The notes under the pieces: generated by a model
The model's input: the letters and a program-made list of their open reading frames with translations, nothing else
Database searches by the model: none
What the model was told of the DNA's origin: nothing
Shown here: one piece after another, positions 1 through 14,992 of the stretch
How positions within the stretch are numbered: position 1 is the stretch's first letter
Layout: each line of letters begins with the position of its first letter
Translations under genes and position numbers: made by a program
NCBI GenBank assembly: GCA_043797125.1
Contig: JAZDPX010000013.1
Span: 9,180 to 73,179 of the forward strand
Length of the DNA stretch: 64,000 bases
Reading direction: 5' to 3'
DNA from: Candidatus Omnitrophota bacterium
GTDB taxonomy: Bacteria > Omnitrophota > Gorgyraeia > JABMRG01 > JAFGKX01

Positions 1-393
1 TCGCAAAGCTGCAATTCCTTATCTATTGTCTCAAACGCTTTGCTTCTGTCAAAAAACGCGAGGTCCCAGTCATTGGAAAGCTTAATTCCTTCATGATCGG
101 CAATGCAGGCAGCTTCGCACTCGCCGCAGAATATGCACGTATCTGTATAATGTATCATCTGCCTTTTAGCTTGGCTTTCATTAACTATGTCTTTATTATC
201 AATAGCGCCTACAGGGCAGACCTCTTTACACGCTAAACACCCGACGCATTTTTCCTCATTGTATTTTGGCTGGCCCCTGAAATTAGGGTGCGCCACATGG
301 GGCTGTTTCGGGAACTTGGAGGTATACGGCCCGACTATCAACGCCTTAATCGCCTCTATTAGCTCTCTTATCTTAGGAAGTTTCATAATTCCA
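1..393 (-). CDS. NuoI/MbhN-like 2x[4Fe-4S] ferredoxin subunit of membrane-bound hydrogenase; start codon inside window, 3' end runs beyond window position 1
   Basis: Minus-strand ATG at 391-393 gives MKLPKIRELIEAIKAL... with two CxxCxxCxxxCP motifs (CVGCLACKEVCP, CIFCGECEAAC). Absent from the ORF track because there is no stop inside the window. Confidence 0.6.
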
Positions 394-427
394 CAATTTT
401 TAATTTTGCATTTTTAATTTTGAACTT

Positions 428-763
428 TTACTTCTCGCCTTCTTTATCCTCGGCGTACTTATCGACCACGCTCTTATCCCACAACTTGACACCTGCTTTA
501 TGCGCGCCGCGCGCTATCGCATGAGCCGCAACAGGGGATGTTAATATAATAAATATTATGCACAAAAACGCTTTTATGCCGGCAGCGGTAAACCCTACAA
601 TGATAAATGTTCCTAATAATATACCGCAGGTACCAAGAGTAACGCTCTTTGTGGAAGCCTGCAGGCGGTTATACACATCCGGAAGGCGCACAAGCCCCAG
701 GCATCCCAACAAATCAAATGCCAGCCCAATACTGATAAATATCAATCCAATAGTGCTATTCAT
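428..763 (-). CDS. Mrp/Mnh antiporter subunit G-like (MbhC-like)
   Basis: Matches the MrpG pattern (VRLPDVYNRLQASTK..TLG; TSPVAAHAIARGAH). Track ORF 428..793 starts at TTG. The ATG at 763 lies 5 nt after the MrpF stop and has a GGAAGAGGG SD, so it is the likelier start. Confidence 0.7.
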   Translation of the reverse strand: MNSTIGLIFISIGLAFDLLGCLGLVRLPDVYNRLQASTKSVTLGTCGILLGTFIIVGFTAAGIKAFLCIIFIILTSPVAAHAIARGAHKAGVKLWDKSVVDKYAEDKEGEK

Positions 764-1142
764 CAAACCCTCTTCCTTCCAAAAATTTAGCAAGCGCCAG
801 GGTACTGATAAAACTCTGTAAAGCCCAGGCTATTCCGATATCGATATACCATGACCTGCCGGTTGAAATAGTCAAGATGGCGCAAAGCCCTACAATCATA
901 ATGCCAAGTATGTCCATTGCTACAATCCTGTCAGCTCCGGTCGGACCTTTGGATATACGATAAAGGCATAAAAAGCAGGCAAGGATAATTATAAAAAGCG
1001 CCCTGCCTAAAAATCCCAGATGCGGCAAATCAGGATAAAATAAAAATGGAAGCGGCCGCACGATAATAAATGCCAGAATCGCCGTCAGCATAACCGCCCC
1101 CAGCAACCACCTAATAATTTTTATTCCTTTATTATTTTTCAT
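756..1142 (-). CDS. Mrp/Mnh antiporter subunit F-like
   Basis: Membrane protein with the MrpF pattern GPTGADRIVAMD...ALQSFISTLALAKF. Confidence 0.65.
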   Translation of the reverse strand: MKNNKGIKIIRWLLGAVMLTAILAFIIVRPLPFLFYPDLPHLGFLGRALFIIILACFLCLYRISKGPTGADRIVAMDILGIMIVGLCAILTISTGRSWYIDIGIAWALQSFISTLALAKFLEGRGFDE

Positions 1143-1636
1143 TCGAAAATTTTCTCCAGCACCCTCTCAAAGCGTCCGGCTATAATCTCGGAAGCATTAT
1201 CTATATCTTTATCTTTTACATCAATCCAGTGTATATACAAAATGCCTTTGTCTTTGTCAATGTCCACAGATAATGTGCCTGGCGTAAGCGTTATAGAGTT
1301 GGCTAAAAATGTAAGGCCAGTGTCTGTTTTTAATTTTGTTTTTATTTTAATTATGCCGGGATTTATCGGCAGATTAGGATGCAGAACGCGGTATGCAACA
1401 TCAATGTTTGCCTTCAAGCATTCCCATAAAAACAAAGGGATATAATATACAATAAAATACCAATATCGCAAAGGGTGCTTAAGGGCATACGGCCTTCTGA
1501 CAAACAAATCTCCTGTAATAAACGCAACAAAAGAAGCGACAAAGACGCCAACGATAACATGTTGTGAGTCTACAGGCCAGCTCAAAAACAGCCATACCAA
1601 AAGCGCCACAAAAAACAGAACTATCCTACTCTTCAT
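1139..1636 (-). CDS. Mrp/Mnh antiporter subunit E-like (MbhA-like)
   Basis: MrpE-like pattern (LTPGTLSVDID...LYIHWIDV) and 4-nt overlaps with both neighbours. Confidence 0.65.
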   Translation of the reverse strand: MKSRIVLFFVALLVWLFLSWPVDSQHVIVGVFVASFVAFITGDLFVRRPYALKHPLRYWYFIVYYIPLFLWECLKANIDVAYRVLHPNLPINPGIIKIKTKLKTDTGLTFLANSITLTPGTLSVDIDKDKGILYIHWIDVKDKDIDNASEIIAGRFERVLEKIFE

Positions 1637-1639
1637 TTG

Positions 1640-3142
1640 CTATATCCCCTTTAAGACCGTAACAGCGTGCGCCACGCCTTTTAAAACTGCGTCGGATGCC
1701 TGCTTAATAAAAATTTCGTTTAAACCCGGCACCAACAAAATGCCTCCTGCTAAACAGATAAGCGCCAATGCGCACATCGACAATTTCATAAAAACAGGCA
1801 CTTCTTTCAGGCCGGAAAATTTTTCTTTTAAACGGCCGAAGAACGCGTATTTCATAACCTTCATAAATGAGGCAAGGGTCATTATGCTCGCTAAAACAGC
1901 CCAAAAAGCATATCCATACCTGCCTGCTTCTACCGCAGCAATTATGATAATGAGCTTGCTCCAAAAACCATTAAAAGGCGGAATGCCCGCAATTGACATC
2001 GATGCTATCAGGCTTGTCGTTGAGGTAAAAGGCATCTTTGCGCTTAGCCCTCCCATTTCCTTCAAATCTCTTGTCCCTGTGGAATATTCGATAGCGCCTG
2101 AATTTAGAAACAACAAAGATTTAAATATAGAGTGATTAAAAAGATGAAAAAGCCCGCCTAACATCCCAAGAGGCGTGCCTAAACCAATACCAAGAAAAAC
2201 ATATCCTATCTGACTTATAGAGTGATATGCCAACAGCCTTTTAAAGTCCCACTGGCCTATGGCTAAAAATACGCCTATGACCATAGAAAGGGCCCCGAGC
2301 GCCATAAATATTAAAGATATATCGGAACTTATTCCAAAAATATTGTAGAATATCCTGCATAAGGTATAGATCCCAAGGGATTTTATCAGGACGCCTGAAA
2401 GCATAGCTGAAATAGGCGCCGGAGCAGAAGGATGCGCGTCAGGCAGCCAAGCATGAAACGGCACAAGCGCTGCCTTAAGCCCGAAACCCATAATAAACAA
2501 AATGCTCGTCAATAAAATAATATTGGCAGTTCCCTTTTCAGACAGAATCCTGGCCATGTCAGCCATATTCAGCGTGGATGTATAGCTGTATAAAAATCCT
2601 ATGCCCAGAAGCAAGAAAAGCGAGCCGACGGTGCTCATAATCGCGTATTTAAAAGCTGCCTCGAGTTCGTGTTTTTCCGTGCCGAAGGCAACCAGGGCAT
2701 AACTTGCAACCGAGGCTATTTCCAGAAACACAAAAAGATTAAATATGTCGCCTGTTATTACCACACCGTTCATTCCGCCAAGCATTAACAGAAATAAGGT
2801 GTAAAACTGCCATTTTGAAGTAAACCTCTCCATATAATCTATCGAATAAATTACAATAATAAATGCCACCAAATTTATAGTAACAAGCATAAATGATGTC
2901 AAGCCATCGAGTGTCACCTCTATTCCGAAGGGAGGCTGCCAAGCGCCTACGCTGTAAGAAAAAGCGCCGCCGGTATTAACCATCGCCACGGTCAAAAAAG
3001 ACAAGCTGCATAAAATAAAAGTGGTCAAAATACCTATGATATCCGGCAGCCGCTTTATCTTTTTCCCGAAAATAGAAATCAAAAATGCCCCTGCTAAAGA
3101 TATGGCAACAAAAAACGGTATTATGCCCGCTAACCGAATCAT
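1640..3142 (-). CDS. MrpD/NuoM/NuoN-family proton-pumping antiporter subunit
   Basis: 500-aa polytopic membrane protein carrying the conserved NuoL/M/N core (WLPDAHPSAPAPISAMLSG, GYVFLGIG). Confidence 0.8.
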   Translation of the reverse strand: MIRLAGIIPFFVAISLAGAFLISIFGKKIKRLPDIIGILTTFILCSLSFLTVAMVNTGGAFSYSVGAWQPPFGIEVTLDGLTSFMLVTINLVAFIIVIYSIDYMERFTSKWQFYTLFLLMLGGMNGVVITGDIFNLFVFLEIASVASYALVAFGTEKHELEAAFKYAIMSTVGSLFLLLGIGFLYSYTSTLNMADMARILSEKGTANIILLTSILFIMGFGLKAALVPFHAWLPDAHPSAPAPISAMLSGVLIKSLGIYTLCRIFYNIFGISSDISLIFMALGALSMVIGVFLAIGQWDFKRLLAYHSISQIGYVFLGIGLGTPLGMLGGLFHLFNHSIFKSLLFLNSGAIEYSTGTRDLKEMGGLSAKMPFTSTTSLIASMSIAGIPPFNGFWSKLIIIIAAVEAGRYGYAFWAVLASIMTLASFMKVMKYAFFGRLKEKFSGLKEVPVFMKLSMCALALICLAGGILLVPGLNEIFIKQASDAVLKGVAHAVTVLKGI

Positions 3143-3477
3143 CCTCTTAACTCCCTTATTTTCGTAATATCGAATGTGCCGTATTTCTCGTATATCTTCA
3201 TTGCAATGGCTACAAGCAGCGCTGTGGTCGCAAGCCCGATTACAATTGAGGTAAGCACCAATGCCTGGGGCAGGGGGTCAACCATGTTTTTTATTTCAGC
3301 TTCAGGAGAAAAAATCGGAGCGCGCCCGCCTATACGATATCCCGTCAATACAAGAAATAAGTTAACGGCATATTCTACCACCATGGCGCCTATAATAATC
3401 TTGATGATATTGCGTTTTCTTAAAATGCAATAAAGACCGGCGCAAAAAAGGATAAGGCAGAGTAAATATACAATCAT
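3139..3477 (-). CDS. MrpC/NuoK-like small membrane subunit
   Basis: 112 aa with three TM segments, in the position and size expected for MrpC/NuoK. Confidence 0.6.
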   Translation of the reverse strand: MIVYLLCLILFCAGLYCILRKRNIIKIIIGAMVVEYAVNLFLVLTGYRIGGRAPIFSPEAEIKNMVDPLPQALVLTSIVIGLATTALLVAIAMKIYEKYGTFDITKIRELRG

Positions 3478-3935
3478 TTTTTCTTCTCCGAATCAGTCGT
3501 TAAAACTACCAGCGCGACAAATATCATAAAAAGCCCGGCGCCCACCTTAAGGCTTATTGCGATATTGCACAGAGGGATAATCCCGGAGCTGAATAATTTA
3601 AACGGCTCGCCTTTGGGTATAAAATTCAAGAAAAACCAGCCGCCCGTGAAGCCTAAAAGCGCTATCGCTAAAAACATTATTGCGCCAAGGCTTTCAAAAA
3701 ATGACGCAGCCGCCTTAGGCAATCTTTTAAAAGCCTCTTCTTTGCCATATGCAAGCATAAGATGTATAAAAGAAAGCGCTATGATAACGCCGCCCGCAAA
3801 ACCTCCGCCCGGCGAAAGATGCCCGTGGGCGAGTATGTAAATCCCGTATAAAAGTATCAGCCCTACGGTAAGACGCGTAATGGTCTTTACAATCAGCGTC
3901 ATCCCTTTTTCTTGCTTTTTATTCACGGCTGTCAA
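3474..3935 (-). CDS. MnhB-domain membrane subunit (Mbh small subunit)
   Basis: 153-aa hydrophobic protein that is translationally coupled within the Mrp module. Confidence 0.55.
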   Translation of the reverse strand: MTAVNKKQEKGMTLIVKTITRLTVGLILLYGIYILAHGHLSPGGGFAGGVIIALSFIHLMLAYGKEEAFKRLPKAAASFFESLGAIMFLAIALLGFTGGWFFLNFIPKGEPFKLFSSGIIPLCNIAISLKVGAGLFMIFVALVVLTTDSEKKK

Positions 3936-4477
3936 TCCTCTTCCTTTATCTTCTCTCCGGGCTTCTTCCTGCCAATGCGCCGCACAACCGCTAAAATGCC
4001 TATAACTGCCGTAAACAATATTGTGGCCTCTCCTAAAGTATCGTATGCCCTATAATCAAGAATAATCGCCGCTACAATATTGGCAGCGCCTGTCTTTGAC
4101 AGCCCTTCCTGTAAATAGGTATTTGAAACCTTCATCAGCGGATAGCCGAATTCCGGCAAATCTTTAAGCGCCACAGCCGCGATAATCAGAAATGCCGCGA
4201 TAAATACTAATGTAATGAGAGTATTCAAAAACCATCTTCCTGTTGCTGAAAACGGCAAATCCTTCTTTAATGTTGCCCTTATTAATATGATAAGGCACAA
4301 TATCTCGACAACAAGTTGCGTAATAGCCAAATCTGGCGCTTTTAGCACCAGAAAAACTATTGACAGCCCCAGCCCTACAGCGCCTACCGCTATCACAGAA
4401 GAAAGCAAATCCTTTATCTCAATAGCCGCTATTGCGCCGATAATCATAAATATCAACAATGTATAAAGCTCTATCAT
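3932..4477 (-). CDS. MnhB/MbhE-like membrane subunit
   Basis: 181-aa hydrophobic protein inside the operon with a 4-nt overlap to its neighbour. Confidence 0.55.
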   Translation of the reverse strand: MIELYTLLIFMIIGAIAAIEIKDLLSSVIAVGAVGLGLSIVFLVLKAPDLAITQLVVEILCLIILIRATLKKDLPFSATGRWFLNTLITLVFIAAFLIIAAVALKDLPEFGYPLMKVSNTYLQEGLSKTGAANIVAAIILDYRAYDTLGEATILFTAVIGILAVVRRIGRKKPGEKIKEED

Positions 4478-4481
4478 ATAC

Positions 4482-6137
4482 CTACCTTAATAAAAAATAA
4501 AAAAGAATCAGCATTCCGAAGAGACACCACGCCATATATGTAGGCAAAATGCCGTTGTGCAGGTAACGCAACACGCCGTTAAACGCGAAAGTTGCACTAG
4601 CGCCCATTTCATAAATGTCAAATACCTTTTTTGCGGCTAACTTGTATATGAACGACAAAATCCCTATATCCTGGATTGTCTTGTAAAAATCAACTCCTGA
4701 AACACGCATCTCGGGGTATTCTTTTAATAGCTCGCCGCCTACAAACGCTTCAGTTTCTCTTGTCTTTGTTATTGTCCCAAGAAGATAAATTATAAAGCCA
4801 ACCATAATCCCTGCTATTATCAACATGGTTGCGATACTAGCGTTCCACACGCCGGAAAATTCCACTATCTTGCCTACGCTTGGAAGGATAAAAAGCTTTA
4901 ACGGCACTCTATTGGCAAACACGCCGAATATCACGCATAGCGCCGCGAGTATAACCATAGGAATTAGCATTGTTATAGATGTCTCTGCACCTTTGCTTTG
5001 GGCTGTGGGCTGTGGGCTTTGGGCTTTCTGCCCTAGAAACACCGCGTGAACGAGTTTCATAAAACTTGCCAGAGTAAGCGCTGAACCAAACATGGCGCAA
5101 ACAAGCCATATTATCCAAAGCATGGAACCGTTTTTACCCAAATCAATTATACCCTGGTAAATCATCCATTTCGAAACAAATCCGTTAAAAGGCGGGACGC
5201 CTGATATTGCAAATGACGCTATTAAAAATGTGATAAAAGTAACGGGCATAATCTTGGCAAGCCCGCCGAGCTTTTCCATGTCTGTTGTGTTGGCCTTCTT
5301 CTCGACCGCTCCGCCCGATAAAAACAGGCAGGCCTTATATATTGCATGATTAAGCATGTGGAATATGCCGCCTGCAATACCTACAGGATTACCTGTCCCT
5401 ATTCCTAATACCATATAACCAACCTGGCTAACAGCGTGATATCCGAGCAACCGTTTTAAATCATGCTGCACAAGCGCCATCATAACCGCGGCTACTATCG
5501 TAAAACTTCCGACGGTCATTAAGAAAATATTCATGCCTGTATCCATCCTAAACATATAAAGTGAAATCCTTGCAAGAAAATATATGCCCAACAGCTTATC
5601 CAAAGATGCAGGTAAAAATGCGGTTACAGGCGTTGGCGCATCTTCCGCTGTATCCGGCACCCATGTATGAAATGGCATTGCCCCTGCTTTTGCAAACGCG
5701 CCTGCCGCAAGGCAAAGATATGCCCATACAGCTGCTTTTGTATTCAGCGTTATGCTCATTGCATCCATTTTAAGAGAACCTGTAATCTTCAATATAAGCG
5801 CAAGGCCTAAAAGCATTAACGCGTCTGTGCCGCCTATTATTATAAACGCCTTTTTTGCGGTGTATGTTGTGTTTTCTTTTTCGCCGAAATCTATCAGAAG
5901 ATATAAAAGCAGCCCTAAGAATCCCCAGAACACCATAAGTAAAAGCAGGTTATTGGAAAATACAACACCCAGCGACGCAATTAATGTAAGGAGTATATAA
6001 AAATAGTACTTAATCAGGCCTTTTGTCTTTTTCATAAAGCCTATCGAGTATAACGCAATCAGCAGGGTGAATACTATAACAAATATCCCCACAAAATTTG
6101 CCAGGTTATCGAATTTAAAAAGCTGCTCAGGTATCAT
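4482..6137 (-). CDS. MrpA/NuoL/MbhH-like antiporter subunit
   Basis: 551 aa with the NuoL-family core (HTWVPDTAEDAPTPVTAFL, GYMVLGIGTG). A heptamer repeat at 4995-5032 encodes a KAQSPQPTAQSKG insertion. Confidence 0.8.
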   Translation of the reverse strand: MIPEQLFKFDNLANFVGIFVIVFTLLIALYSIGFMKKTKGLIKYYFYILLTLIASLGVVFSNNLLLLMVFWGFLGLLLYLLIDFGEKENTTYTAKKAFIIIGGTDALMLLGLALILKITGSLKMDAMSITLNTKAAVWAYLCLAAGAFAKAGAMPFHTWVPDTAEDAPTPVTAFLPASLDKLLGIYFLARISLYMFRMDTGMNIFLMTVGSFTIVAAVMMALVQHDLKRLLGYHAVSQVGYMVLGIGTGNPVGIAGGIFHMLNHAIYKACLFLSGGAVEKKANTTDMEKLGGLAKIMPVTFITFLIASFAISGVPPFNGFVSKWMIYQGIIDLGKNGSMLWIIWLVCAMFGSALTLASFMKLVHAVFLGQKAQSPQPTAQSKGAETSITMLIPMVILAALCVIFGVFANRVPLKLFILPSVGKIVEFSGVWNASIATMLIIAGIMVGFIIYLLGTITKTRETEAFVGGELLKEYPEMRVSGVDFYKTIQDIGILSFIYKLAAKKVFDIYEMGASATFAFNGVLRYLHNGILPTYMAWCLFGMLILFYFLLR

Positions 6138-7315
6138 TTCTTTTTAGTTCTTAGTTTTTCAGTCTTTTCCTGCGAAAGCCTTACTAAATCTTCGCCGCTG
6201 TAAAGTTTTTTTCCTTCAACATTGCGCACTGCCATTCTCTCTGTGCAGCAATAGCACGGGTCTATGGCAGCCAGAATTATTGTCGCATCAGATATGGTCT
6301 CGCCTACAACAGTTGCCTTGTATGTCGGCAGGTTCATAAACGTTGGCGCCCTTACTTTGTGGCGCGCCGGGCGGTTTGTGCCGTCACTTTTTACATAATG
6401 AAATGTCTCGCCTCTCGGGGCTTCTATGTGGCCTATGCCTTCACCGACAGGAATATTTTTTAGTTTCAGGTCTATTTCGCCCTCGGGCAAATTCTGCAGG
6501 CACCATTTCAAAATTTTTATAGACTCAAATGTCTCCAATATCCTTACAACTGCCTTATCAAACACATCCCCGTTTTCAGTAACAATCATATCCCATTCTA
6601 ATCTGTCGTAAACCCCGTACGGGCAATTCTTCCTTAAATCCCTGGCAACTCCCGATGCCCTTGCCGTAGGCCCGAGCGCGCTGAAATTTATAGCCTCTTC
6701 TTTAGTAAGAATCCCTATGCCTTTTGTCCTTGCGTGTAAAACAGGGTCGTCAATTACCGCCTTCTTAAGCATGACTAACGTAGGAATAATAGAATCTATT
6801 TTTTTTAATACCCCGGGTATGTCTATTGCTTTTATATCGCGCCTTACGCCGCCGGGCTTAAACATGGCGTAGTTATTTCTGTTGCCCGATAAAACTTCCA
6901 TTACGTCCAGTATTTCTTCTCTTAATTTCCACGCCCACATATAAACTGTATTATATCCCAAAAAGTGCCCTGCAAGCCCTAACCATAAAAGATGCGAATG
7001 CACCCTCTCGCCTTCGGCGATTATTGTCCTTATGAATTTAGCGCGCTCCGGGACTTCAACCGGTATTATATCCTCAACCGCCTTTGTATAAGCGTAGGGA
7101 TGGCTTGTCGAGCATATACCGCAGATTCTCTCCACTGCGAATGTTGACTGGTCAAATGTCTTGGATTCGGAGAGTTTCTCAATGCCGCGATGGTTATACC
7201 CAATGCGCACGTCTATGGCCACAACCTTCTCGCCTTCAACGGTAAGAGTGAAAAACTCCGGCTCTTCCTGCAATGGGTGATATGGGCCTATTGGCACTAT
7301 TGTTCTACTCATCAT
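6134..7315 (-). CDS. group 4 [NiFe]-hydrogenase large subunit (NuoD/MbhL/EchE-like)
   Basis: Both Ni-Fe ligand motifs are present: N-terminal RICGICSTSH and C-terminal DPCYCCTER. Confidence 0.85.
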   Translation of the reverse strand: MMSRTIVPIGPYHPLQEEPEFFTLTVEGEKVVAIDVRIGYNHRGIEKLSESKTFDQSTFAVERICGICSTSHPYAYTKAVEDIIPVEVPERAKFIRTIIAEGERVHSHLLWLGLAGHFLGYNTVYMWAWKLREEILDVMEVLSGNRNNYAMFKPGGVRRDIKAIDIPGVLKKIDSIIPTLVMLKKAVIDDPVLHARTKGIGILTKEEAINFSALGPTARASGVARDLRKNCPYGVYDRLEWDMIVTENGDVFDKAVVRILETFESIKILKWCLQNLPEGEIDLKLKNIPVGEGIGHIEAPRGETFHYVKSDGTNRPARHKVRAPTFMNLPTYKATVVGETISDATIILAAIDPCYCCTERMAVRNVEGKKLYSGEDLVRLSQEKTEKLRTKKK

Positions 7316-7788
7316 ACTCCTCTGTCTCTAATCGCGGACTTATCCCATTCTTTATAATCGCGGCGCAGCGGGTAAACGCCCTGCGGCCATTCATCAGGCA
7401 AAAGCAGCCTTCGTAAGTCAGGGTGGCCTTTGAAGTTTATGCCTAAAAGCTCGTGTATTTCTCTTTCCACCCAGTTTGCCGCTTCAAAGCTCGGGGCAAG
7501 CGAATCTATTTCCAATGTTTTAGATTTATCCAGCTTTACTCTTAATGAAATCACAAGATTAATCTGCTCTATTGTAAAATGGTAAAGTATCTCCATATGA
7601 TACCGCACATCCACGCCTGACGCTATATTAAATCTTGCGCCCAAGTCTTTAAAAATATAGTTGGCTATTTTAATTATAGATTCGGGCTTAATCTCGATAT
7701 ACACCCTTTTCGGAGTCTTATCAAAGACATCGATGATATCGCTCTTGAATTTTTCTTTTATGCTTTTTAATATTTCTTCTCTGTTCAT
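7312..7788 (-). CDS. NuoC/MbhK-like hydrogenase subunit
   Basis: 158 aa, NuoC-like (30 kDa subunit) by position and size, with 4-nt overlaps to both neighbours. Confidence 0.65.
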   Translation of the reverse strand: MNREEILKSIKEKFKSDIIDVFDKTPKRVYIEIKPESIIKIANYIFKDLGARFNIASGVDVRYHMEILYHFTIEQINLVISLRVKLDKSKTLEIDSLAPSFEAANWVEREIHELLGINFKGHPDLRRLLLPDEWPQGVYPLRRDYKEWDKSAIRDRGV

Positions 7789-8210
7789 TTTTTTCCGCCC
7801 ACTTTTTCTATCAGCTTCACCACGCCCGCGATAATCGCCTCAGGCTTGGGCGGGCATCCGGGAATATACGCGTCAACAGGAATAATCTTATCCAGCGGCA
7901 ACGGACAATTATAGCTGTGTATAAACATGCCTCGCGACATGGAACATTCGCCTATCGCGACAACAAGACATGGTTTTGGCACCTGCTCGTATAATCTCTT
8001 CAATATCGTAACCGACTTCCTGTTGCATGAACCTGTAATTAAAAGCACATCCGCGTGTTTTATGCTGCCTGCTAAAAGTATTCCAAAGCGCTCTATATCA
8101 AACCTCGGAGTAAGACAGTCCAGTATTTCAATATCGCAGTTGTTACAACTGCCTGTTGAAAGATGAAACACCCACGGAGATTTCAGTAATGCCTTTAGTT
8201 TTACGCTCAT
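7785..8210 (-). CDS. NuoB-like [NiFe]-hydrogenase small subunit
   Basis: Proximal-cluster cysteines are present (GSCNNCD, AIGECS, IPGCPP). Confidence 0.8.
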   Translation of the reverse strand: MSVKLKALLKSPWVFHLSTGSCNNCDIEILDCLTPRFDIERFGILLAGSIKHADVLLITGSCNRKSVTILKRLYEQVPKPCLVVAIGECSMSRGMFIHSYNCPLPLDKIIPVDAYIPGCPPKPEAIIAGVVKLIEKVGGKK

Positions 8211-8211
8211 A

Positions 8212-9135
8212 TTATCTTCCTGCCAATGCCAATATTACCGCCAATATTGCTATAATCGTCATCGGGCCCCAGAAAAACCTTACTGCATGGTCAATCCTGA
8301 CCCTGGGGTTTGTATTCCTTATGACCGTAATCAATGCCACAACGCCTACATATTTAAGCAAGCCATATAAAAGATGTATGCCGTCTAATCTTATGCCTCC
8401 CATAAACAAAATCACCAGAAAGAAAGGCAGGGTGAATAAAAGCATATTTTTCATGAGCTTGTATACTGCCAAGCCGGCGCCTGAATATTCTATCAGCGGG
8501 CCGCATACAATCTCGGTCTCTGCTTCAGGCATATCAAAGGGCACAAGAGCCAGTTTTGCCTGCACGCACATAAGCGCTACTATAAATGCCAAAACCCCGG
8601 AGAAGCTTCCTATAATAACACCGCTTTGCGCCTGATACTGCAATATATCCCCAATCCTTATGGAAAACCCTGATTTTGCGATAACTGCCGCTATCGCAAG
8701 TATAAATGGCAGCTCATAACCTAAAACTAATTTCATCTCGCGCGACGCGCCCAAGCTTGCGTACGGGTTTGCAGAAGCAAAACCGCCCATGATTATAGAT
8801 ATAGAAGGAATTACTAATAAATATACTATTACTATCAGGTCGCCTAAAAATGTATTCGCGGTATTAACATTATTCACCCATAATAAAGTAGAAACCAGCA
8901 TAACGCTCATGATGCCGATAACAGGCGCTGCTAAAAATACTGTTTTAGATACGCCATGCGGAATGAGCGTCTCTTTGCCTAAAAGCTTTACAATATCTAT
9001 CAGCGGCTGCAATAAAGGCGGGCCTACGCGATATTGCACCCTAGCTGTAACTTTTCTATCAACCCAGCTTGCAAAAAGCCCGATAACAGCTGTCAGCAGA
9101 AATCCGTAAAATAAAAGATAAACAATATAAATCAT
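8212..9135 (-). CDS. NuoH/HycD/MbhM-like membrane subunit
   Basis: 307-aa polytopic membrane protein placed between the ferredoxin gene and the small subunit. Confidence 0.7.
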   Translation of the reverse strand: MIYIVYLLFYGFLLTAVIGLFASWVDRKVTARVQYRVGPPLLQPLIDIVKLLGKETLIPHGVSKTVFLAAPVIGIMSVMLVSTLLWVNNVNTANTFLGDLIVIVYLLVIPSISIIMGGFASANPYASLGASREMKLVLGYELPFILAIAAVIAKSGFSIRIGDILQYQAQSGVIIGSFSGVLAFIVALMCVQAKLALVPFDMPEAETEIVCGPLIEYSGAGLAVYKLMKNMLLFTLPFFLVILFMGGIRLDGIHLLYGLLKYVGVVALITVIRNTNPRVRIDHAVRFFWGPMTIIAILAVILALAGR

Positions 9136-9139
9136 ATAT

Positions 9140-9640
9140 TTAAACCTTCTCCCTTGCCCAATGGGTAGAATGCGCTATTATATTATCTCCGACTAAAAAC
9201 ATATTCTCTTCCAATTTTATATCCGCATTTTTCAAACTCAACGCGCCATACGAACAGCTTTTTATGCACAGCGGCTCTTCCTTTTTATCTCTTCTATCTA
9301 AGCAAAAATCGCAGGCATTCGCCAGCATAGGAAGAAGCTCCGGGTAAATAGCGCCGTAAGGACATGCGTGCGAGCAGGACTTACAGCTTACGCAGCGCAT
9401 GTTGTGCCTTATTAATAATTTTTCCTTGTCCTTTTGCTGCTCGAGCGCTTCCACGGGGCATGCGTTTACGCAATGCGGCTCTTCACACCTCCTGCACACA
9501 AGCGCGTATGTAACTAGTTCAGCCACGGAAATAATACCGTTATTATCCGGATGATAAAAGTAACTGCACTTTAGCGCGCAAGCTTTGCATTGGCCGCTTG
9601 CGCAAATATCCAAGTCTATGAAGAGTTTTTCTTTTGCCAT
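9140..9640 (-). CDS. multi-[4Fe-4S] electron-transfer ferredoxin (HycB/HyfA-like)
   Basis: About 16 Cys arranged in four CxxCxxCxxxC(P)-type clusters. Confidence 0.75.
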   Translation of the reverse strand: MAKEKLFIDLDICASGQCKACALKCSYFYHPDNNGIISVAELVTYALVCRRCEEPHCVNACPVEALEQQKDKEKLLIRHNMRCVSCKSCSHACPYGAIYPELLPMLANACDFCLDRRDKKEEPLCIKSCSYGALSLKNADIKLEENMFLVGDNIIAHSTHWAREKV

Positions 9641-10465
9641 TTAGTCCCAAATCTCCGAGAACGTTTTTATCCTGCTGTATTGAAACACCGGGCCGTCTTT
9701 ACACGCGTAATATATGCCTATTCGGCAGTGCCCGCATTTTCCTATTCCGCATGACATGTTCTTTTCCATTGAAAGATATATATTTTCTTCCTTAAATCCC
9801 ATTTCAAGCGCTTTTTTGGTTGCAAACTTCATCATTATAGGCGGGCCGCAAATTATCGCGACGCCTTTTGAATAATCCATATCAACATCATCCAAAATAG
9901 AAGTTACAAGGCCTACGTTGCCCTTCCATGTTTCATCGCCGGAATCAACCGTGAGCTTAATATTCAAATCGCTTCTTGTGTGCCAGCTTTGGGTCTCGTC
10001 TTTATAAACCAGTTCCTTCGATGTCCTGCAGCCGCCTCTAAAAAACAGTTTCTTAAAATCCTTTGATCTGTCAAAAAGCGCGTACATAAGGCTTCTTAAA
10101 GGCGCGAAACCGCATCCTCCGCCGATAACCAATATCTCTTTGCCTTTAAAATCATCTAAAGGATAACCTTTTCCAAAAGGCCCTCTTAAACCAACCATGT
10201 CGCCTTTTTTAAGCTGATGTATCTTTTCAGTAACCTTACCCACTTTCATTATGCTTACTTCCATCGTGTCTTTAACAGCAGGCCTTGATGAGGGAGTAAA
10301 AGGCGCTTCCCCGACGCCGGGAATTGTCAATTCAATAAACTGGCCCGCGGCAAACGTTATCTGTTCTACGGGTTTAAGCTTCAGCGTTCTGATGGTCGGT
10401 GTTTCCGTTATAACATCAAGCACTTCTGTTTTAATAGGCCTGTATGGATTATTTATCTTATTCAT
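9641..10465 (-). CDS. HydG/AsrB/PyrK-like FAD/NAD(P)H oxidoreductase subunit with C-terminal [2Fe-2S]
   Basis: FNR-like fold (GGGCGFAPLRS) with a C-terminal CGIGKCGHCRIG motif. The ATG at 10465 forms an ATGA overlap with the upstream stop; the track start 10537 would overlap by 76 nt. Confidence 0.75.
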   Translation of the reverse strand: MNKINNPYRPIKTEVLDVITETPTIRTLKLKPVEQITFAAGQFIELTIPGVGEAPFTPSSRPAVKDTMEVSIMKVGKVTEKIHQLKKGDMVGLRGPFGKGYPLDDFKGKEILVIGGGCGFAPLRSLMYALFDRSKDFKKLFFRGGCRTSKELVYKDETQSWHTRSDLNIKLTVDSGDETWKGNVGLVTSILDDVDMDYSKGVAIICGPPIMMKFATKKALEMGFKEENIYLSMEKNMSCGIGKCGHCRIGIYYACKDGPVFQYSRIKTFSEIWD

Positions 10466-11484
10466 TTTGCTGTTAATCTTTTTAAGACTCTTCTTATATC
10501 TATTTTTGCCGGGCACGCTGTTATGCAGCGGCCGCATCCTGTGCAGGCATATACATCAGCGGCCTTCGGGAAAAAATCAAACTTTTTTTCAAACCTGTTC
10601 CTTAGCCTCATCCACAGGTGCGGCCTTGGATTAGCGCCTCCTGCAACTCTCGCAAAATACTTTACCATGCAGGAATCCCATATTCGCAAGCGCGCCATTT
10701 TACTTTCATCCTTCTGGTCATATAAAAGAAAACAATGGCAGGTGGGGCATATGGTATTGCACGCGCCGCATTCAACGCATGTCTTTGCCTCGTCCTCCCA
10801 TATACCGGACTCGTAATTTTTATCTATAATGTCTTTAAAAATATCCTGGTTGGGAACATTGTTTTCTTTTATGTTGGCCTCGACTTCCTTGGTTGTTTTT
10901 ACCCTTATGTTGTCCCGTTGAAGTAGAAAACCATTTTTTACTTCTTCAAATAAAGATGCGTGCTTGGAAATAATATTCTCGCCTTTTTTTGATCCTGTTT
11001 CTGCCAGAAAACCGCCATTAACTTGCGAAAGATTTATATCAAAATTCTCCTGCGCATACGGCTTTACGCCTAATGCCAGGCAGAAGCATGTCTTAATCGC
11101 GCAGGTGCAATCGCAGGATATGATAAGATTTTCTTCGCGGGCCTTTATATAAAACGGGTCCTGGTAATCGTGATTTTTAAATACAAAATCCTGGACCTTA
11201 AACCCTTTAAGATCGCATGCCTTAACCCCGACAACAGCAAATGGCTTGTTCTTGCTGGATGGTATATCCGCAGAAAAATCTTCCGCCACAATCTCTCTTG
11301 CCTTGCTGAAAAACGCTTTAACAGGCTCGAATGCCCTTACTTCACCTAGCACGATATCTTCACTCGGGCCTGTGTATTCTGCGTAAAAACGCTGCTGGTT
11401 CTTTTTTACAGGTGTAAAGACGCTGTAATCCTTTTTTAAGAAATCCAGCAGCCTAAATAGATTTTCCCGTGTAATATATTTCAT
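10462..11484 (-). CDS. HydB/AsrA-like iron-sulfur subunit (sulfhydrogenase beta-like)
   Basis: Cys clusters CDCTCAIKTCFC, CVECGACNTICPTCHC and CTGCGRCITACP. Translationally coupled (ATGA) to rex and to the HydG-like gene. Confidence 0.7.
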   Translation of the reverse strand: MKYITRENLFRLLDFLKKDYSVFTPVKKNQQRFYAEYTGPSEDIVLGEVRAFEPVKAFFSKAREIVAEDFSADIPSSKNKPFAVVGVKACDLKGFKVQDFVFKNHDYQDPFYIKAREENLIISCDCTCAIKTCFCLALGVKPYAQENFDINLSQVNGGFLAETGSKKGENIISKHASLFEEVKNGFLLQRDNIRVKTTKEVEANIKENNVPNQDIFKDIIDKNYESGIWEDEAKTCVECGACNTICPTCHCFLLYDQKDESKMARLRIWDSCMVKYFARVAGGANPRPHLWMRLRNRFEKKFDFFPKAADVYACTGCGRCITACPAKIDIRRVLKRLTAK

Positions 11485-12110
11485 TTTTTATTCGCCAGAA
11501 AGTACGAAAGCGTCGCGAGTTCTCTTGAAAGGTCAACGTCTTTCACCTTTACGTTCTCGGGCACTATCAATGCCGCTGGGGCAAAGTTTAATATGCACTC
11601 AACGCCTGAGGCGACTATCTTTTCCGCTACTTCCTGGGCCGCCTGCCCGGGAACAGCTATAATACCTATTGATATCTTTTTTTCCGCCATAACCTTCGGC
11701 ATTTTTTCAATAGGCTGTATAGCCACATCGCCGTGTTTTTTGCCGACTTTTCTCATATCAGAATCGAACGCAGCCACAATATTAAGCCCGCGTTCTTTAA
11801 AGCCCGGATATGCCAAAAGCGCGGTTCCTAAAGAACCAGCGCCTACGACAGCGACGTTCCAGGTCTTATTTTTTCCTAATATATTCTCAAGCGCCTGTTT
11901 TAGCTCATTTACATCGTAGCCGGAGCCGCTTACGCCGAACTGTCCGAAATGGCCCAGGTCTTTTCTTACCTGCGCGTCGCTTAAGTTTAACCTGTCGCCT
12001 AATTCAGCGGATGATATAGTGCGTATGTTTACCTTGGCTAATTCTGTAAGCTCTCTAAGATAAACAAACAGCCTTGAGATTGTGCTTTCGGGGATTTTCT
12101 TGGTATTCAT
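11481..12110 (-). CDS. rex: redox-sensing transcriptional repressor Rex
   Basis: N-terminal wHTH followed by a Rossmann domain (VAVVGAGSLG, AFDSD) with typical Rex length and layout. Confidence 0.85.
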   Translation of the reverse strand: MNTKKIPESTISRLFVYLRELTELAKVNIRTISSAELGDRLNLSDAQVRKDLGHFGQFGVSGSGYDVNELKQALENILGKNKTWNVAVVGAGSLGTALLAYPGFKERGLNIVAAFDSDMRKVGKKHGDVAIQPIEKMPKVMAEKKISIGIIAVPGQAAQEVAEKIVASGVECILNFAPAALIVPENVKVKDVDLSRELATLSYFLANKK

Positions 12111-12131
12111 ATTGTGTAAAAAATCACAGAC

Positions 12132-12149
12132 TTTGTGCTATTTTTCACA
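12132..12149 (-). promoter_or_regulatory. Rex operator (TTGTG-N8-CACAA)
   Basis: TTGTGCTATTTTTCACAA matches the Rex box TTGTGAANNNNTTCACAA at 16 of 18 positions. It lies immediately downstream of the -10 of the rex-hydrogenase promoter. Confidence 0.6.
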
Positions 12150-12178
12150 AAGTATATCAAAATAAAAAAATTTTGTCA
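12150..12178 (-). promoter_or_regulatory. sigma-70 promoter of the rex/hydrogenase operon
   Basis: The minus strand reads TTGACA, a 17-nt spacer, then TATACT. Confidence 0.55.
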
Positions 12179-14919: not shown

Positions 14920-14966
14920 GACAGTGCAAGTAAAAAATACAATTTTTAAAAAGTATTAATAATGCC

Positions 14967-14991
14967 GTCATCCCCGCGAAAGCGGGGATCC
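14967..14991. repeat. repeat A: GTCATCCCCGCGAAAGCGGGGATCC (GC stem, GAAA loop)
   Basis: Exact copy that abuts the stop of the TPR gene. Confidence 0.85.
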
Positions 14992-14992
14992 A

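What the first reader, a model, noticed from the sequence alone, without database searches (positions are those of the whole stretch)
1..12178. Rex-controlled operon fusing a HydB/HydG-type NAD(P)H module to a membrane-bound group-4 [NiFe]-hydrogenase and a full Mrp antiporter module
Seventeen translationally coupled genes run rex, HydB-like FeS, HydG-like FAD/[2Fe-2S], polyferredoxin, NuoH-like, small subunit, NuoC-like, large subunit, MrpA-like, four small Mrp subunits, MrpD-like, MrpE, MrpF, MrpG and a NuoI-like ferredoxin. The large subunit keeps both Ni-ligating CxxC motifs (RICGICSTSH and DPCYCCTER), so it is a real hydrogenase and not an Mbx or complex-I relic. The classical Mbh/Ech enzymes use ferredoxin. 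The sulfhydrogenase-type beta/gamma pair here suggests an NAD(P)H-linked, ion-translocating hydrogenase. A Rex box overlapping the promoter and rex as first gene fit NADH-responsive control. This architecture deserves a close look as a possibly undescribed group-4 subtype.
Basis: partly seen in the sequence, partly recalled or inferred. Interest (0 to 1): 0.75.

Follow-up and report, generated by a model that had tools for sequence, protein, structure and literature searches.

The report
Rex-controlled Hun membrane hydrogenase operon
This is a real, intact operon for a membrane-bound, ion-translocating [NiFe] hydrogenase with an NAD(P)H-type flavoprotein module. The architecture was already described and named "Hun" in 2021, so only its electron donor and its widespread Rex (NADH-sensor) control remain open.

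Summary
On the minus strand, 12179 to 1, a strong sigma-70 promoter and two tandem Rex-type palindromes precede rex and 16 tightly packed genes. These are AsrA/HydB-like, AsrB/HydG-like, a 16-Cys polyferredoxin, NuoH, NuoB, NuoC, a NuoD-type [NiFe] large subunit (CGIC and CYCC motifs), two antiporter-like subunits, all Mrp-type small subunits, and a NuoI/HycF-like ferredoxin cut by the window edge.

The organism is a Candidatus Omnitrophota MAG. The architecture is not undescribed. Glass et al. (bioRxiv 10.1101/536078) named this 16-gene operon "Hun", with HunG in HydDB group 4g and a CGIC–CYCC signature, and listed Omnitrophica among its hosts. Matheus Carnevali et al. 2019 flagged a similar cluster. 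Both papers assumed or left open the donor, and neither mentions Rex.

I found relatives in at least 598 species genomes. The 80 loci examined come from more than 15 phyla and keep almost the same gene order. Three results here favour an NAD(P)H link:
- HunB's FAD, NAD(P) and 2Fe-2S motifs are invariant in 68 sequences.
- 21 of 23 perfect Rex boxes in 1 Mb of Hun loci lie directly upstream of hunA or rex.
- One Cloacimonadota locus swaps HunAB for a GltD-type NAD(P)H flavoprotein.

The NAD(P)H link remains unproven.

The parts
12151..12179 (-). sigma-70-type promoter, TTGACA-17 nt-TATACT with TG before the -10
   Evidence: Best-scoring promoter-like site (11 of 12) in window 1-15000. Sequence read.
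12134..12149 (-). Rex box 1, TGTGAAAAATAGCACA (core of TTGTGAAAAATAGCACAA). It starts 1 nt after the -10 hexamer.
   Evidence: It has one mismatch to TGTGA-N6-TCACA. Only two such sites occur in 64 kb, against 0.17 expected.
12113..12128 (-). Rex box 2, TGTGATTTTTTACACA. It ends 2 nt before the rex ATG.
11481..12110 (-). rex, the NADH/NAD+-sensing repressor (209 aa) and first gene of the operon
   Evidence: NCBIfam Rex models: NF003993 253 bits (cut-off 217), NF003992 242 (226), NF003994 213 (130). Pfam Put_DNA-bind_N + CoA_binding. It overlaps hunA by 4 nt.
10462..11484 (-). hunA, an AsrA/HydB-like Fe-S subunit (340 aa, 17 Cys)
   Evidence: Pfam Fer4_22. NCBIfam ShyB 191, HydB 161 and AsrA 123 bits, all below the equivalog cut-offs. 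PDB 9nez_B, P. furiosus sulfhydrogenase I beta, E 6e-43.
9641..10462 (-). hunB, an AsrB/HydG-like FAD / NAD(P) / [2Fe-2S] flavoprotein (273 aa). The longer ORF reaching 10537 is probably not used.
   Evidence: Pfam FAD_binding_6, NAD_binding_1 and DHODB_Fe-S_bind. PDB 9nez_C, sulfhydrogenase I gamma, E 2e-55. The motifs GE.PFTPSS, GGGxGxAPxRS, CGPP and the 2Fe-2S Cys are invariant in 68 homologues.
9140..9640 (-). hunC, a HycB/DmsB-type polyferredoxin (166 aa, 16 Cys, enough for four [4Fe-4S] clusters)
   Evidence: Pfam Fer4_11. PDB hits include HDCR HycB4 7qv7_B, E 4e-11. Cys count.
8212..9135 (-). hunD, the NuoH/MbhM-like membrane anchor
   Evidence: Pfam NADHdh, E 1.7e-67.
7785..8210 (-). 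hunE, the NuoB-type hydrogenase small subunit (CxxC...C...CPP)
   Evidence: Pfam Oxidored_q6. Cys positions.
7312..7788 (-). hunF, the NuoC-like subunit
   Evidence: Pfam Complex1_30kDa.
6134..7315 (-). hunG, the [NiFe] large subunit (393 aa): L1 RICGICSTSH, L2 DPCYCCTER, 33-aa C-terminal tail
   Evidence: Pfam Complex1_49kDa + NiFeSe_Hases. Best PDB hit is MbhL 6cfw_L at 7e-89, then HycE 7z0s_E at 4e-81. Motifs. 100% identical to an NCBI Ca. Omnitrophota MAG protein.
4482..6137 (-). hunH, the proximal antiporter-like subunit (NuoL/MrpA-N/MbsH'-like, 551 aa)
   Evidence: Pfam Proton_antipo_M. PDB MbhH 6cfw_H at 3e-52, and a near full-length match to MBS chain 6u8y_X.
3932..4477 (-). hunI, a MbhD+MbhE fusion equivalent to the MrpA C-terminal domain
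   Evidence: Pfam MbhD and MbhE.
3474..3935 (-). hunJ, MrpB/MnhB-like
   Evidence: Pfam MnhB.
3139..3477 (-). hunK, MrpC/NuoK-like
   Evidence: Pfam Oxidored_q2.
1640..3142 (-). hunL, the MrpD-like antiporter subunit (500 aa)
   Evidence: Pfam Proton_antipo_M, E 2e-69. NCBIfam MrpD-type models score best.
1139..1636 (-). hunM, MrpE
   Evidence: Pfam MNHE, E 3.5e-47.
756..1142 (-). hunN, MrpF
   Evidence: Pfam MrpF_PhaF.
428..793 (-). hunO, MrpG (the likely start is the ATG at 763)
   Evidence: Pfam PhaG_MnhG_YufB. Translation.
1..386 (-). hunP, a NuoI/HycF-like 2x[4Fe-4S] ferredoxin. Only its first 128 aa are in the window.
   Evidence: Start found. Pfam Fer4 families. The full-length orthologue in L001 (205 aa) hits HycF 7z0s_F best at 4e-15, then MbhN 6cfw_N at 9e-10.

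Best explanation
The locus is an autoregulated rex-hunABCDEFGHIJKLMNOP operon of a Candidatus Omnitrophota bacterium. It encodes a Hun-type (HydDB group 4g), Mrp-linked, membrane-bound [NiFe] hydrogenase.

Shown:
- Gene content, order and tight coupling.
- Intact Ni-Fe ligands.
- A strong promoter with two Rex operators between the -10 hexamer and the rex start codon.
- Conservation of the whole arrangement across many phyla.

Inferred mechanism:
- HunB (FAD, [2Fe-2S]) exchanges a hydride with NAD(P)H.
- Electrons then run through the Fe-S clusters of HunA, the four-cluster polyferredoxin HunC, the HycF-like HunP and the small subunit HunE to the Ni-Fe site of HunG.
- This is the same wiring logic as formate hydrogenlyase, with formate dehydrogenase replaced by an NAD(P)H dehydrogenase.
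- The redox step is coupled through HunD and HunH to the complete Mrp-type module HunI-O, which moves H+/Na+.
- Rex lifts repression when NADH/NAD+ rises. The likely physiological direction is therefore disposal of reducing equivalents as H2.
- NADH to H2 is uphill at standard conditions (about +18 kJ/mol, textbook potentials). The membrane arm probably lets ions flow in to drive the reaction, or the enzyme runs near equilibrium at very low H2. It probably does not pump as ferredoxin-driven Mbh does.
- Ferredoxin may feed in as well, through HunC or HunP.
For: Architecture and coupling.

Ni-Fe motifs and cleavable tail. hycI-hypAFCDE follows hunP in a complete Omnitrophota genome (L001) and in a Thermotogae-type locus (L002-L004).

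HunA and HunB are the closest sequence relatives of the beta and gamma subunits of NADPH-linked P. furiosus sulfhydrogenase I (9nez_B 6e-43, 9nez_C 2e-55).

HunB's FAD, NAD(P) and 2Fe-2S motifs are at least 95-100% conserved in 68 sequences from more than 15 phyla.

The order A-B-C-D-E-F-G-H-I-J-K-L-M-N-O is conserved in nearly all of 80 loci. At least 598 species genomes carry a relative of the large subunit.

Rex:
- Two boxes in the window.
- rex is adjacent in 11 loci and divergent in 3 more.
- 21 of 23 perfect TGTGA-N6-TCACA sites in 1.02 Mb of Hun loci lie in the 28 kb directly upstream of hunA or rex. A composition-matched simulation expects 0.02. The loci concerned come from Thermotogae-type, Clostridia, Bacteroidales, Omnitrophota, Nitrospirota, Planctomycetota, Ratteibacteria and Endomicrobia genomes.

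Non-orthologous replacement: in a Cloacimonadota locus (L029), HunAB is replaced by a ferredoxin-domain + GltD-type NAD(P)H flavoprotein.

HunP is closest to HycF and HunC is HycB-like.
Against: No biochemistry exists for any Hun enzyme.

The papers that describe it assume ferredoxin as donor (10.1101/536078; PMC8542988; PMC9324843).

Rex also represses the ferredoxin-dependent Ech [NiFe] hydrogenase of C. bescii (PMC6391272), so Rex control does not identify the substrate.

About two thirds of Hun loci, including all Ignavibacteria and Neomarinimicrobiota loci, show no Rex box.

NADH to H2 is thermodynamically unfavourable without low H2 or energy input.

HunB shares with NADPH-specific HydG a conserved [K/R]-[T/S]...Y-K pattern after the second beta strand. 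That pattern would suit NADPH, which Rex does not sense.

The L029 replacement is a single case.
Confidence: 0.55

Rival explanations
1. Ferredoxin-only Hun, as published. HunABC merely accept electrons from reduced ferredoxin and wire them to the Ni-Fe site. H2 evolution then drives H+ pumping and Na+/H+ exchange exactly as in Mbh. The nucleotide site of HunB would be vestigial or regulatory.
For: This is the interpretation in 10.1101/536078, PMC8542988 and PMC9324843. The core is most similar to ferredoxin-dependent Mbh (6cfw_L 7e-89). It is thermodynamically straightforward. Rex is known to control a ferredoxin-dependent Ech. According to PMC8542988, Omnitrophota MAGs with this enzyme also encode Rnf, which could pass NADH electrons to ferredoxin.
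Against: Mbh takes ferredoxin directly at MbhN and needs no flavoprotein. HunB's glycine-rich NAD(P) motif, CGP motif and FAD motif are invariant across more than 15 phyla, which argues for a used nucleotide site. The one observed replacement of HunAB is by another NAD(P)H-type flavoprotein.
Confidence: 0.3
2. An uptake enzyme. Hun oxidises H2 and reduces NAD(P)+ (about -18 kJ/mol at standard conditions) while exporting ions. It would act as an energy-conserving H2:NAD(P)+ oxidoreductase for H2-consuming or acetogenic members.
For: The direction is exergonic. Sulfhydrogenase-type HydBG modules are reversible (own knowledge). Some Omnitrophota with this hydrogenase carry a Wood-Ljungdahl pathway (PMC8542988).
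Against: Rex derepresses when NADH is high. That is the wrong signal for an NADH-producing enzyme. Most hosts are described as fermenters that need to dispose of reductant.
Confidence: 0.12
3. The HydB/HydG-like genes belong to an unrelated pathway, such as an AsrABC-type sulfite reductase or a cytosolic sulfhydrogenase, and only happen to sit next to the hydrogenase genes.
For: NCBIfam's best hit for HunB is AsrB (244 bits), and HunA hits ShyB, HydB and AsrA.
Against: All scores are below the equivalog cut-offs. The overlaps are 4 nt and 1 nt, with no internal promoter or terminator. No asrC was found among the window ORFs scanned. The A-B-C-D... order is conserved in about 60 loci of many phyla.
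Confidence: 0.02

Closest known systems
Hun complex (Ni-Fe hydrogenase-Na+/H+ antiporter supercomplex; Glass et al., bioRxiv 10.1101/536078 (dated 2021); the HunG large subunit is placed in HydDB group 4g)
   Same: The same 16 genes in the same order. HunAB are AsrAB-like, HunC is a polyferredoxin, HunD-G and HunP form the hydrogenase module, and HunH-O form the antiporter modules. The diagnostic CGIC / CYCC motifs are the same. Omnitrophica is listed among the hosts.
   Different: Nothing structural differs. In the window, and in a subset of loci from several phyla, rex is the first gene and/or Rex operators precede hunA. That paper does not mention Rex (0 occurrences). The paper assumes ferredoxin as donor; I favour NAD(P)H.
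Pyrococcus furiosus membrane-bound hydrogenase Mbh (group 4d; PDB 6CFW)
   Same: It gives the best solved-structure hits for the large subunit (7e-89) and for the antiporter-like subunit. It shares NuoB/C/D/H/I-type core subunits plus MrpB/C/D/E/F/G-type subunits.
   Different: Mbh has 14 subunits, one antiporter-like subunit and no flavoprotein or polyferredoxin. Its Mrp genes come first in the operon, and its large subunit has no long C-terminal tail (own knowledge for the gene order and subunit count). Hun adds HunABC and a second antiporter-like subunit (HunH), and its large subunit carries a 33-aa tail; a hycI gene follows hunP in related loci.
E. coli formate hydrogenlyase (group 4a; PDB 7Z0S)
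   Same: It is the second-best structural relative of the large subunit (4e-81). HunP is closest to HycF and HunC is HycB-like. The C-terminal tail after DPCxxCxxR and the HycI-type protease are shared. The wiring logic is the same: a soluble dehydrogenase, then a polyferredoxin, a HycF-type subunit, the small subunit and Ni-Fe.
   Different: Hun has no formate dehydrogenase. The input module is HunAB, and Hun carries a full Mrp module that FHL-1 lacks.
P. furiosus cytosolic sulfhydrogenase I beta/gamma (HydB/HydG; PDB 9NEZ) and Salmonella-type AsrA/AsrB
   Same: HunA and HunB are homologous along their whole length. They have the same FAD / NAD(P) / [2Fe-2S] and Fe-S cysteine patterns.
   Different: The partner is a group-4 membrane hydrogenase, not a group-3b dimer or a sirohaem AsrC. 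Scores lie far below the NCBIfam equivalog cut-offs, so HunAB form a separate sister family.
Rex-controlled hydrogenase operons of Firmicutes (for example C. bescii ech and hyd; PMC6391272)
   Same: A Rex operator of the TTGTGAA-N4-TTCACAA type lies in front of hydrogenase structural genes, and rex is autoregulated.
   Different: Here rex is fused into the operon as its first gene. The association recurs in many non-Firmicute phyla.

Membership tests
Hun complex (Glass et al. 2021) | Sixteen co-linear genes: AsrA-like, AsrB-like, polyferredoxin, NuoH, NuoB, NuoC, NuoD-type large subunit, antiporter-like subunit, Mrp-type small subunits, MrpD, MrpE, MrpF, MrpG, NuoI-like | tested here: met
   The order is identical to that of 60+ loci from other phyla. 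hunP is cut by the window edge, but its first 128 aa are present.
Hun complex (Glass et al. 2021) | Large-subunit Ni-Fe motifs CGIC (L1) and CYCC (L2) | tested here: met
   RICGICSTSH and DPCYCCTER. Among the 150 representatives at 50% identity, CYCC occurs only in the closest cluster and its fragments.
Hun complex (Glass et al. 2021) | No asrC (sirohaem subunit) in the operon | tested here: met
   No NIR_SIR-type protein appears among the ORFs scanned. About 40 of the roughly 65 window ORFs were scanned.
HydDB [NiFe] group 4g | Classification of the large subunit by the HydDB classifier or a reference phylogeny | not testable with these tools
   HydDB is not available here. The literature places HunG and the Omnitrophota Mrp-linked enzymes in 4g. 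L029 and L072 are MAGs whose hydrogenases were published as 4g.
Functional group-4 [NiFe] hydrogenase (as opposed to Mbx/Mbs, Ehr or complex I) | All four Ni-ligating cysteines present, small-subunit proximal cluster cysteines present, maturation genes present | tested here: met
   Both CxxC pairs are present and HunE has CxxC...C...CPP. hycI-hypAFCDE follows the operon in relatives. The window itself ends before that point.
Mbh (group 4d, P. furiosus type) | 14-subunit composition with one antiporter-like subunit, ferredoxin taken directly at the NuoI-like subunit, no flavoprotein | tested here: not met
   There are two Proton_antipo_M subunits plus HunA, HunB and HunC. It is homologous to Mbh but has a different composition.
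AsrABC anaerobic sulfite reductase | AsrA and AsrB reaching the equivalog scores, together with AsrC | tested here: not met
   AsrA scores 122.8 against a cut-off of 323. AsrB scores 243.8 against 288.6. No AsrC was found.
Group 3b sulfhydrogenase (HydBGDA / ShyBCDA) | Beta and gamma subunits partnered with group-3 small and large subunits | tested here: not met
   HydB 161 against 750, ShyB 191 against 690, HydG 192 against 650. The partner large subunit is of the Complex1_49kDa / group 4 type.
Rex regulon member | A Rex protein plus a TTGTGAA-N4-TTCACAA-type operator at the promoter | tested here: met
   Rex passes the equivalog cut-offs. Two operators, each with one core mismatch, lie between the -10 hexamer and the ATG. 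Perfect operators stand at the same place in 19 of 58 related loci.
Rex regulon member | NADH-sensitive binding of Rex to the operator | not testable with these tools
   This needs a gel-shift (EMSA) or in vivo assay.
NAD(P)H-linked hydrogenase (functional class) | NAD(P)H-dependent H2 evolution or H2-dependent NAD(P)+ reduction | not testable with these tools
   Only sequence evidence is available: intact and invariant FAD and NAD(P) motifs in HunB.

The most novel reading that the evidence does not exclude
Hun is not a ferredoxin-driven pump. It is a Rex-controlled NAD(P)H:H+ oxidoreductase, in effect a complex I that uses protons instead of quinone. It spends Na+/H+ motive force through its complete Mrp module to push NAD(P)H electrons uphill to H2. 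Fermenters and syntrophs in more than 15 phyla could then dispose of NADH as H2 without ferredoxin or flavin-based bifurcation. The cross-phylum Rex operator in front of hunA would be its regulatory signature.
Probability: 0.35. Interest if true: 0.75.

Novelty: already known. Interest (0 to 1): 0.4.

Why it matters
Hun-type hydrogenases are common. At least 598 species-level genomes carry a relative of the large subunit, and the 80 loci examined come from more than 15 mostly uncultured anaerobic phyla. They are strongly conserved: more than 120 Omnitrophota protein clusters are at least 83% identical to the window's large subunit. None has been studied biochemically.

Metabolic reconstructions currently book the enzyme as a ferredoxin-driven ion pump. 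If it is instead NAD(P)H-linked and consumes or balances ion-motive force, then the energy budgets and H2 thresholds inferred for Omnitrophota, Atribacteria, Marinimicrobia, Ignavibacteria and others would need revision. A new coupling mode between the pyridine-nucleotide pool, H2 and the membrane potential would also be established.

For this window the practical message is simpler. The operon is a good, complete and typical example of a named but uncharacterised enzyme. It is not a new subtype.

Tried and rejected
- Exact look-up of the window's own large subunit (P0001) found no record. I used the 88%-identical P0046 from a complete genome instead.
- Context look-ups for the more distant representatives P0121 and P0124 returned only 2-3 kb contigs and gave no information.
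- I suspected that the long gaps inside some hun operons (L059 between B and C, L064 between E and F, several Omnitrophota between G and H) would hold the molybdopterin oxidoreductase reported by others. They hold unrelated genes: a pilin-like protein, an amidase, a PD40 protein and a PhoU-domain protein.
- I considered that the PocR-GAF protein and the sigma-54 response regulator just upstream (12176-14609) might regulate the hydrogenase. They sit at the edge of a large exosortase/PEP-CTERM polysaccharide island that also contains rpoN. The hun promoter is sigma-70-type, so I assign them to the island.
- The comparative Rex-regulon paper by Ravcheev et al. 2012 is not held. I therefore cannot say whether it already listed a Kosmotoga hun operon.
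- HydDB classification and a proper phylogeny were not possible with these tools.
- I did not run structure prediction, because sequence matches to solved subunits were already unambiguous.

Full report
**1. What is in the window**

All the genes in the finding exist. They lie on the minus strand, so the operon reads from about 12180 down to position 1 and runs off the left edge.

Pfam and NCBIfam give these assignments, in order:
- rex, 11481-12110. It passes three NCBIfam Rex equivalog cut-offs.
- An AsrA/HydB-like Fe-S protein, 10462-11484.
- An AsrB/HydG-like FAD / NAD(P) / [2Fe-2S] protein, 9641-10462.
- A 16-cysteine polyferredoxin, 9140-9640.
- NuoH-like, 8212-9135.
- NuoB-type small subunit, 7785-8210.
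- NuoC-like, 7312-7788.
- The NuoD-type [NiFe] large subunit, 6134-7315.
- An antiporter-like subunit, 4482-6137.
- A MbhD+MbhE fusion, 3932-4477.
- MnhB, 3474-3935.
- NuoK/MrpC, 3139-3477.
- MrpD, 1640-3142.
- MrpE, 1139-1636.
- MrpF, 756-1142.
- MrpG, 428-793.
- A NuoI-like ferredoxin that starts at 386 and is cut at base 1.

That is rex plus 16 genes.

Intergenic distances range from -38 to +41 nt, and nine junctions are 4-nt overlaps. rex to the HydB-like gene overlaps by 4 nt. The HydB-like to HydG-like junction overlaps by 1 nt. The flavoprotein pair therefore cannot be a separate transcription unit.

The large subunit carries RICGICSTSH (aa 63-72) and DPCYCCTER (aa 352-360). A 33-residue tail follows the second motif.

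**2. Promoter and Rex sites**

The best sigma-70-like site in the first 15 kb is TTGACA-17-TATACT at 12179-12151, with an extended -10 TG.

Two palindromes lie directly downstream:
- TGTGAAAAATAGCACA at 12149-12134.
- TGTGATTTTTTACACA at 12128-12113.

Each has one mismatch to the Rex core TGTGA-N6-TCACA. They are the only two matches to TGTGA-N7-CACA in the 64-kb window, where 0.17 are expected. The first abuts the -10 hexamer. The second ends 2 nt before the rex start codon. This is the classical geometry of an autoregulated repressor.

**3. Whose genome, and what surrounds the operon**

The large subunit is 100% identical to a protein of an NCBI 'Candidatus Omnitrophota bacterium' MAG. More than 120 protein clusters at 83-91% identity come largely from Omnitrophota.

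A complete 1.55-Mb Omnitrophota genome (CP070837.1, locus L001) has a large subunit 88% identical to the window's. It carries the same rex-plus-16-gene operon. There, hycI, hypA, hypF, hypC, hypD and hypE follow directly. This fits a matured, active [NiFe] enzyme, and it shows what lies beyond the window's left edge.

Upstream in the window (12.2-53 kb) lies a large polysaccharide island with low-GC parts. It contains an exosortase, a choice-of-anchor protein, many glycosyltransferases, Wzy-like, GNVR and Poly_export proteins, a sigma-54 response regulator and rpoN. I assign the PocR-GAF protein and the NtrC-type regulator next to the hun promoter to that island. No asrC-like gene turned up among the window ORFs that were scanned.

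**4. Relatives elsewhere**

A search of 1.84 billion representatives at 50% identity gave two close full-length clusters, at 57-58% identity. The next full-length relatives drop to 46% identity or less. The CYCC variant of the L2 motif is confined to the closest cluster and its fragments.

I scanned one genome per GTDB species with the peptides MWAWK[YL]RE and DPCY[CS]CTE. The 80 best loci come from:
- Thermotogae/Petrotogales
- Ignavibacteria and Melioribacter
- Neomarinimicrobiota
- Calditrichota
- Aminicenantes/Acidobacteriota
- Clostridia
- Bacteroidales and Cytophagia
- Omnitrophota
- Kiritimatiellia
- Chitinispirillaceae
- Desantisbacteria
- Nitrospirota
- Planctomycetota
- Ratteibacteria
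- Margulisbacteria
- Endomicrobia
- Auribacterota
- Cloacimonadota

.

I labelled the ORFs of all loci with phmmer, using the window proteins as queries. Wherever the contig is long enough, the order is A-B-C-D-E-F-G-H-I-J-K-L-M-N-O in nearly every locus. Thermotogae-type loci (L002-L004) also end with hycI-hypF-hypC-hypD.

**5. Already described**

Glass et al. (bioRxiv 10.1101/536078) describe a 16-subunit 'Hun' (Ni-Fe hydrogenase-Na+/H+ antiporter) operon. They report it in Atribacteria, Firmicutes, Omnitrophica, Elusimicrobia, Bacteroidetes and Kosmotoga. In their description:
- HunAB are similar to AsrAB, and AsrC is absent.
- HunC is an Fe-S protein.
- HunE, F, G and P form the hydrogenase module.
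- HunG is classed by HydDB as group 4g but is distant from other 4g sequences, with the signature CGIC-CYCC.
- P-like and Na-like membrane modules are present.

This matches the window gene for gene and motif for motif.

Williams et al. report 'Group 4g, Mrp-linked' hydrogenases in Omnitrophota, Cloacimonadota and Auribacterota (PMC8542988; PMC9324843). Two of their MAGs are among my loci (L029, L072). Matheus Carnevali et al. flagged an 'enigmatic' group-4 cluster with asrA, asrB, cooF and Mrp genes, whose closest relatives are in Zixibacteria and Omnitrophica (PMC6349859).

All these papers assume ferredoxin or leave the donor open. None mentions Rex (0 occurrences).

**6. Evidence on the electron partner**

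(a) HunA and HunB align over their whole length with the beta and gamma subunits of P. furiosus sulfhydrogenase I (9nez_B 6e-43, 9nez_C 2e-55). NCBIfam names those subunits NADPH-dependent. By NCBIfam, HunA and HunB fall between ShyB/HydB/AsrA and AsrB/HydG, below every equivalog cut-off, so they form a sister family of their own.

(b) I aligned 68 HunB sequences from the loci. Several features are 95-100% conserved:
- The flavin motif G-E-x-P-F-T-P-S-S.
- The nucleotide motif G-G-G-x-G-x-A-P-x-R-S.
- The C-G-P-P motif.
- The four [2Fe-2S] cysteines.

Such conservation across phyla argues that the nucleotide site is used. The pattern [K/R]146-[T/S]147...Y153-K154 resembles HydG, so NADPH cannot be excluded.

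(c) Rex. Among 58 non-redundant loci with upstream sequence, rex is directly upstream in 11 and divergent in 3 more. Perfect TGTGA-N6-TCACA palindromes occur 23 times in 1.02 Mb of locus DNA. Twenty-one of them lie in the 28 kb (2.8%) just upstream of hunA or rex, spread over 19 loci. A first-order Markov simulation of those same upstream windows expects 0.02 sites. The loci come from Thermotogae-type, Clostridia, Bacteroidales/Rikenellaceae, Omnitrophota, Nitrospirota, Planctomycetales, Ratteibacteria and Endomicrobia genomes. Many of these carry the box without an adjacent rex. Relatedness inflates the count somewhat, but the spread over phyla is real. Ignavibacteria and Neomarinimicrobiota loci have no box.

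(d) In the Cloacimonadota locus L029, HunC to HunO are intact. In place of HunAB stands a 619-aa protein with a 2x[4Fe-4S] domain followed by a GltD-type (Fer4_20 + Pyr_redox_2) NAD(P)H flavoprotein, plus a CBS protein. This is a non-orthologous swap of one pyridine-nucleotide Fe-S flavoprotein for another.

(e) HunP's best solved relative is HycF of formate hydrogenlyase (4e-15), ahead of MbhN (9e-10). HunC is a HycB-type four-cluster protein. The soluble arm is thus built like FHL, with the substrate dehydrogenase replaced by HunAB.

Counter-evidence:
- In C. bescii, Rex represses the ferredoxin-dependent Ech hydrogenase (PMC6391272). Rex control therefore shows a link to the NADH pool but does not identify the substrate.
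- From textbook potentials (NAD+/NADH -320 mV, H+/H2 -414 mV), NADH to H2 costs about +18 kJ/mol. It becomes only weakly exergonic below roughly 10^-3 to 10^-4 atm H2.

**7. Most likely mechanism**

Shown: composition, coupling, motifs, operators and conservation.

Inferred:
- NAD(P)H donates a hydride to FAD in HunB.
- Electrons pass the [2Fe-2S] cluster, the HunA clusters, the four HunC clusters, the two HunP clusters and the HunE cluster to reach Ni-Fe in HunG.
- The redox reaction is coupled through HunD and HunH to the Mrp-like HunI-O module. HunH matches MBS MbsH' along its whole length.
- Rex derepression at high NADH points to H2 evolution as the direction in vivo.
- Given the energetics, the membrane arm would either import ions to drive the reaction or work close to equilibrium at low H2.
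- A mixed input, with ferredoxin at HunC or HunP and NAD(P)H at HunB, is also possible.

I give the NAD(P)H-linked reading 0.55. The published ferredoxin-only reading gets 0.30, an uptake (H2 to NAD(P)+) role 0.12, and an unrelated-pathway reading 0.02.

**8. Verdict**

- Right: a real hydrogenase, flavoprotein genes that belong to the operon, and Rex control.
- Wrong: the claim of novelty.
- Unresolved: NAD(P)H as the partner.

The object itself is already known as Hun (group 4g). These additions sharpen a testable hypothesis about an abundant, uncharacterised enzyme.

Noticed in passing
window 12176-54051: A large exosortase/PEP-CTERM-type polysaccharide island sits directly upstream of the hun promoter. 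It holds a PocR-GAF protein, a sigma-54 response regulator, a choice-of-anchor N protein, a polyprenyl glycosylphosphotransferase, an exosortase, many GT1/GT2/GT4 glycosyltransferases (two fused to polysaccharide deacetylase domains), a Wzy-like protein, a GH123-like protein, asparagine synthase, GNVR and Poly_export proteins, and rpoN on the + strand. Its 30-46 kb part has markedly lower GC (0.33-0.37 against 0.42-0.45). In the complete genome L001, oxidative-stress genes and mnmA occupy the corresponding position upstream of rex. The island may therefore be an insertion.
   Followed up: partly
window 20308-21755 (+): An AbiEi-family antitoxin-like gene and an overlapping 269-aa ORF, possibly the cognate toxin, lie on the opposite strand inside the polysaccharide island.
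   Followed up: no
window 31268-32428 (-): A radical SAM/SPASM protein is embedded among the glycosyltransferases of the island.
   Followed up: no
L029 5213-7476 (Ca. Celaenobacter antarcticus, Cloacimonadota): HunAB are replaced by a 619-aa ferredoxin-domain + GltD-type NAD(P)H flavoprotein and a CBS-pair protein. A second, different group-4 hydrogenase cluster lies immediately upstream (208-5193).
   Followed up: partly
L046 7313-7939; gaps of similar size (about 600-630 nt) in L051, L057, L060, L062, L066 and L085: Several loci, most of them Omnitrophota (L066 is Planctomycetales), have a gap of about 620 nt between hunG and hunH. In L046, the only one scanned, the gap holds a PhoU-domain ORF. 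The window lacks this gap: hunG and hunH overlap by 4 nt.
   Followed up: partly
L059 3369-6841 and L064 7037-9565: Unrelated genes interrupt otherwise complete hun operons. In the Nitrospirota locus L059 these are a pilin-like protein and two proteins with no Pfam match. In the Ratteibacteria locus L064 they are an amidase and a PD40-repeat protein. They could be assembly errors or real insertions.
   Followed up: partly
L063 410-4439 (Planctomycetales): A second HunA/HunB-like pair next to a weakly matching hydrogenase large subunit sits just upstream of the hun operon. It is probably a group-3b sulfhydrogenase. Both kinds of HydBG-type module would then coexist in one genome.
   Followed up: no
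L002-L004 about 90-500 nt upstream of hunA (e.g. L003 5429-5836): Thermotogae-type Hun loci have no rex. They carry a perfect Rex box immediately upstream of the annotated hunA start. They also carry a 135-aa zinc-ribbon protein of unknown role just upstream.
   Followed up: partly
window 9641-10537 (-): The longest ORF for the HydG-like gene extends 75 nt into the HydB-like gene. Homologues (272-273 aa) and the 1-nt stop/start overlap indicate the true start at 10462.
   Followed up: yes
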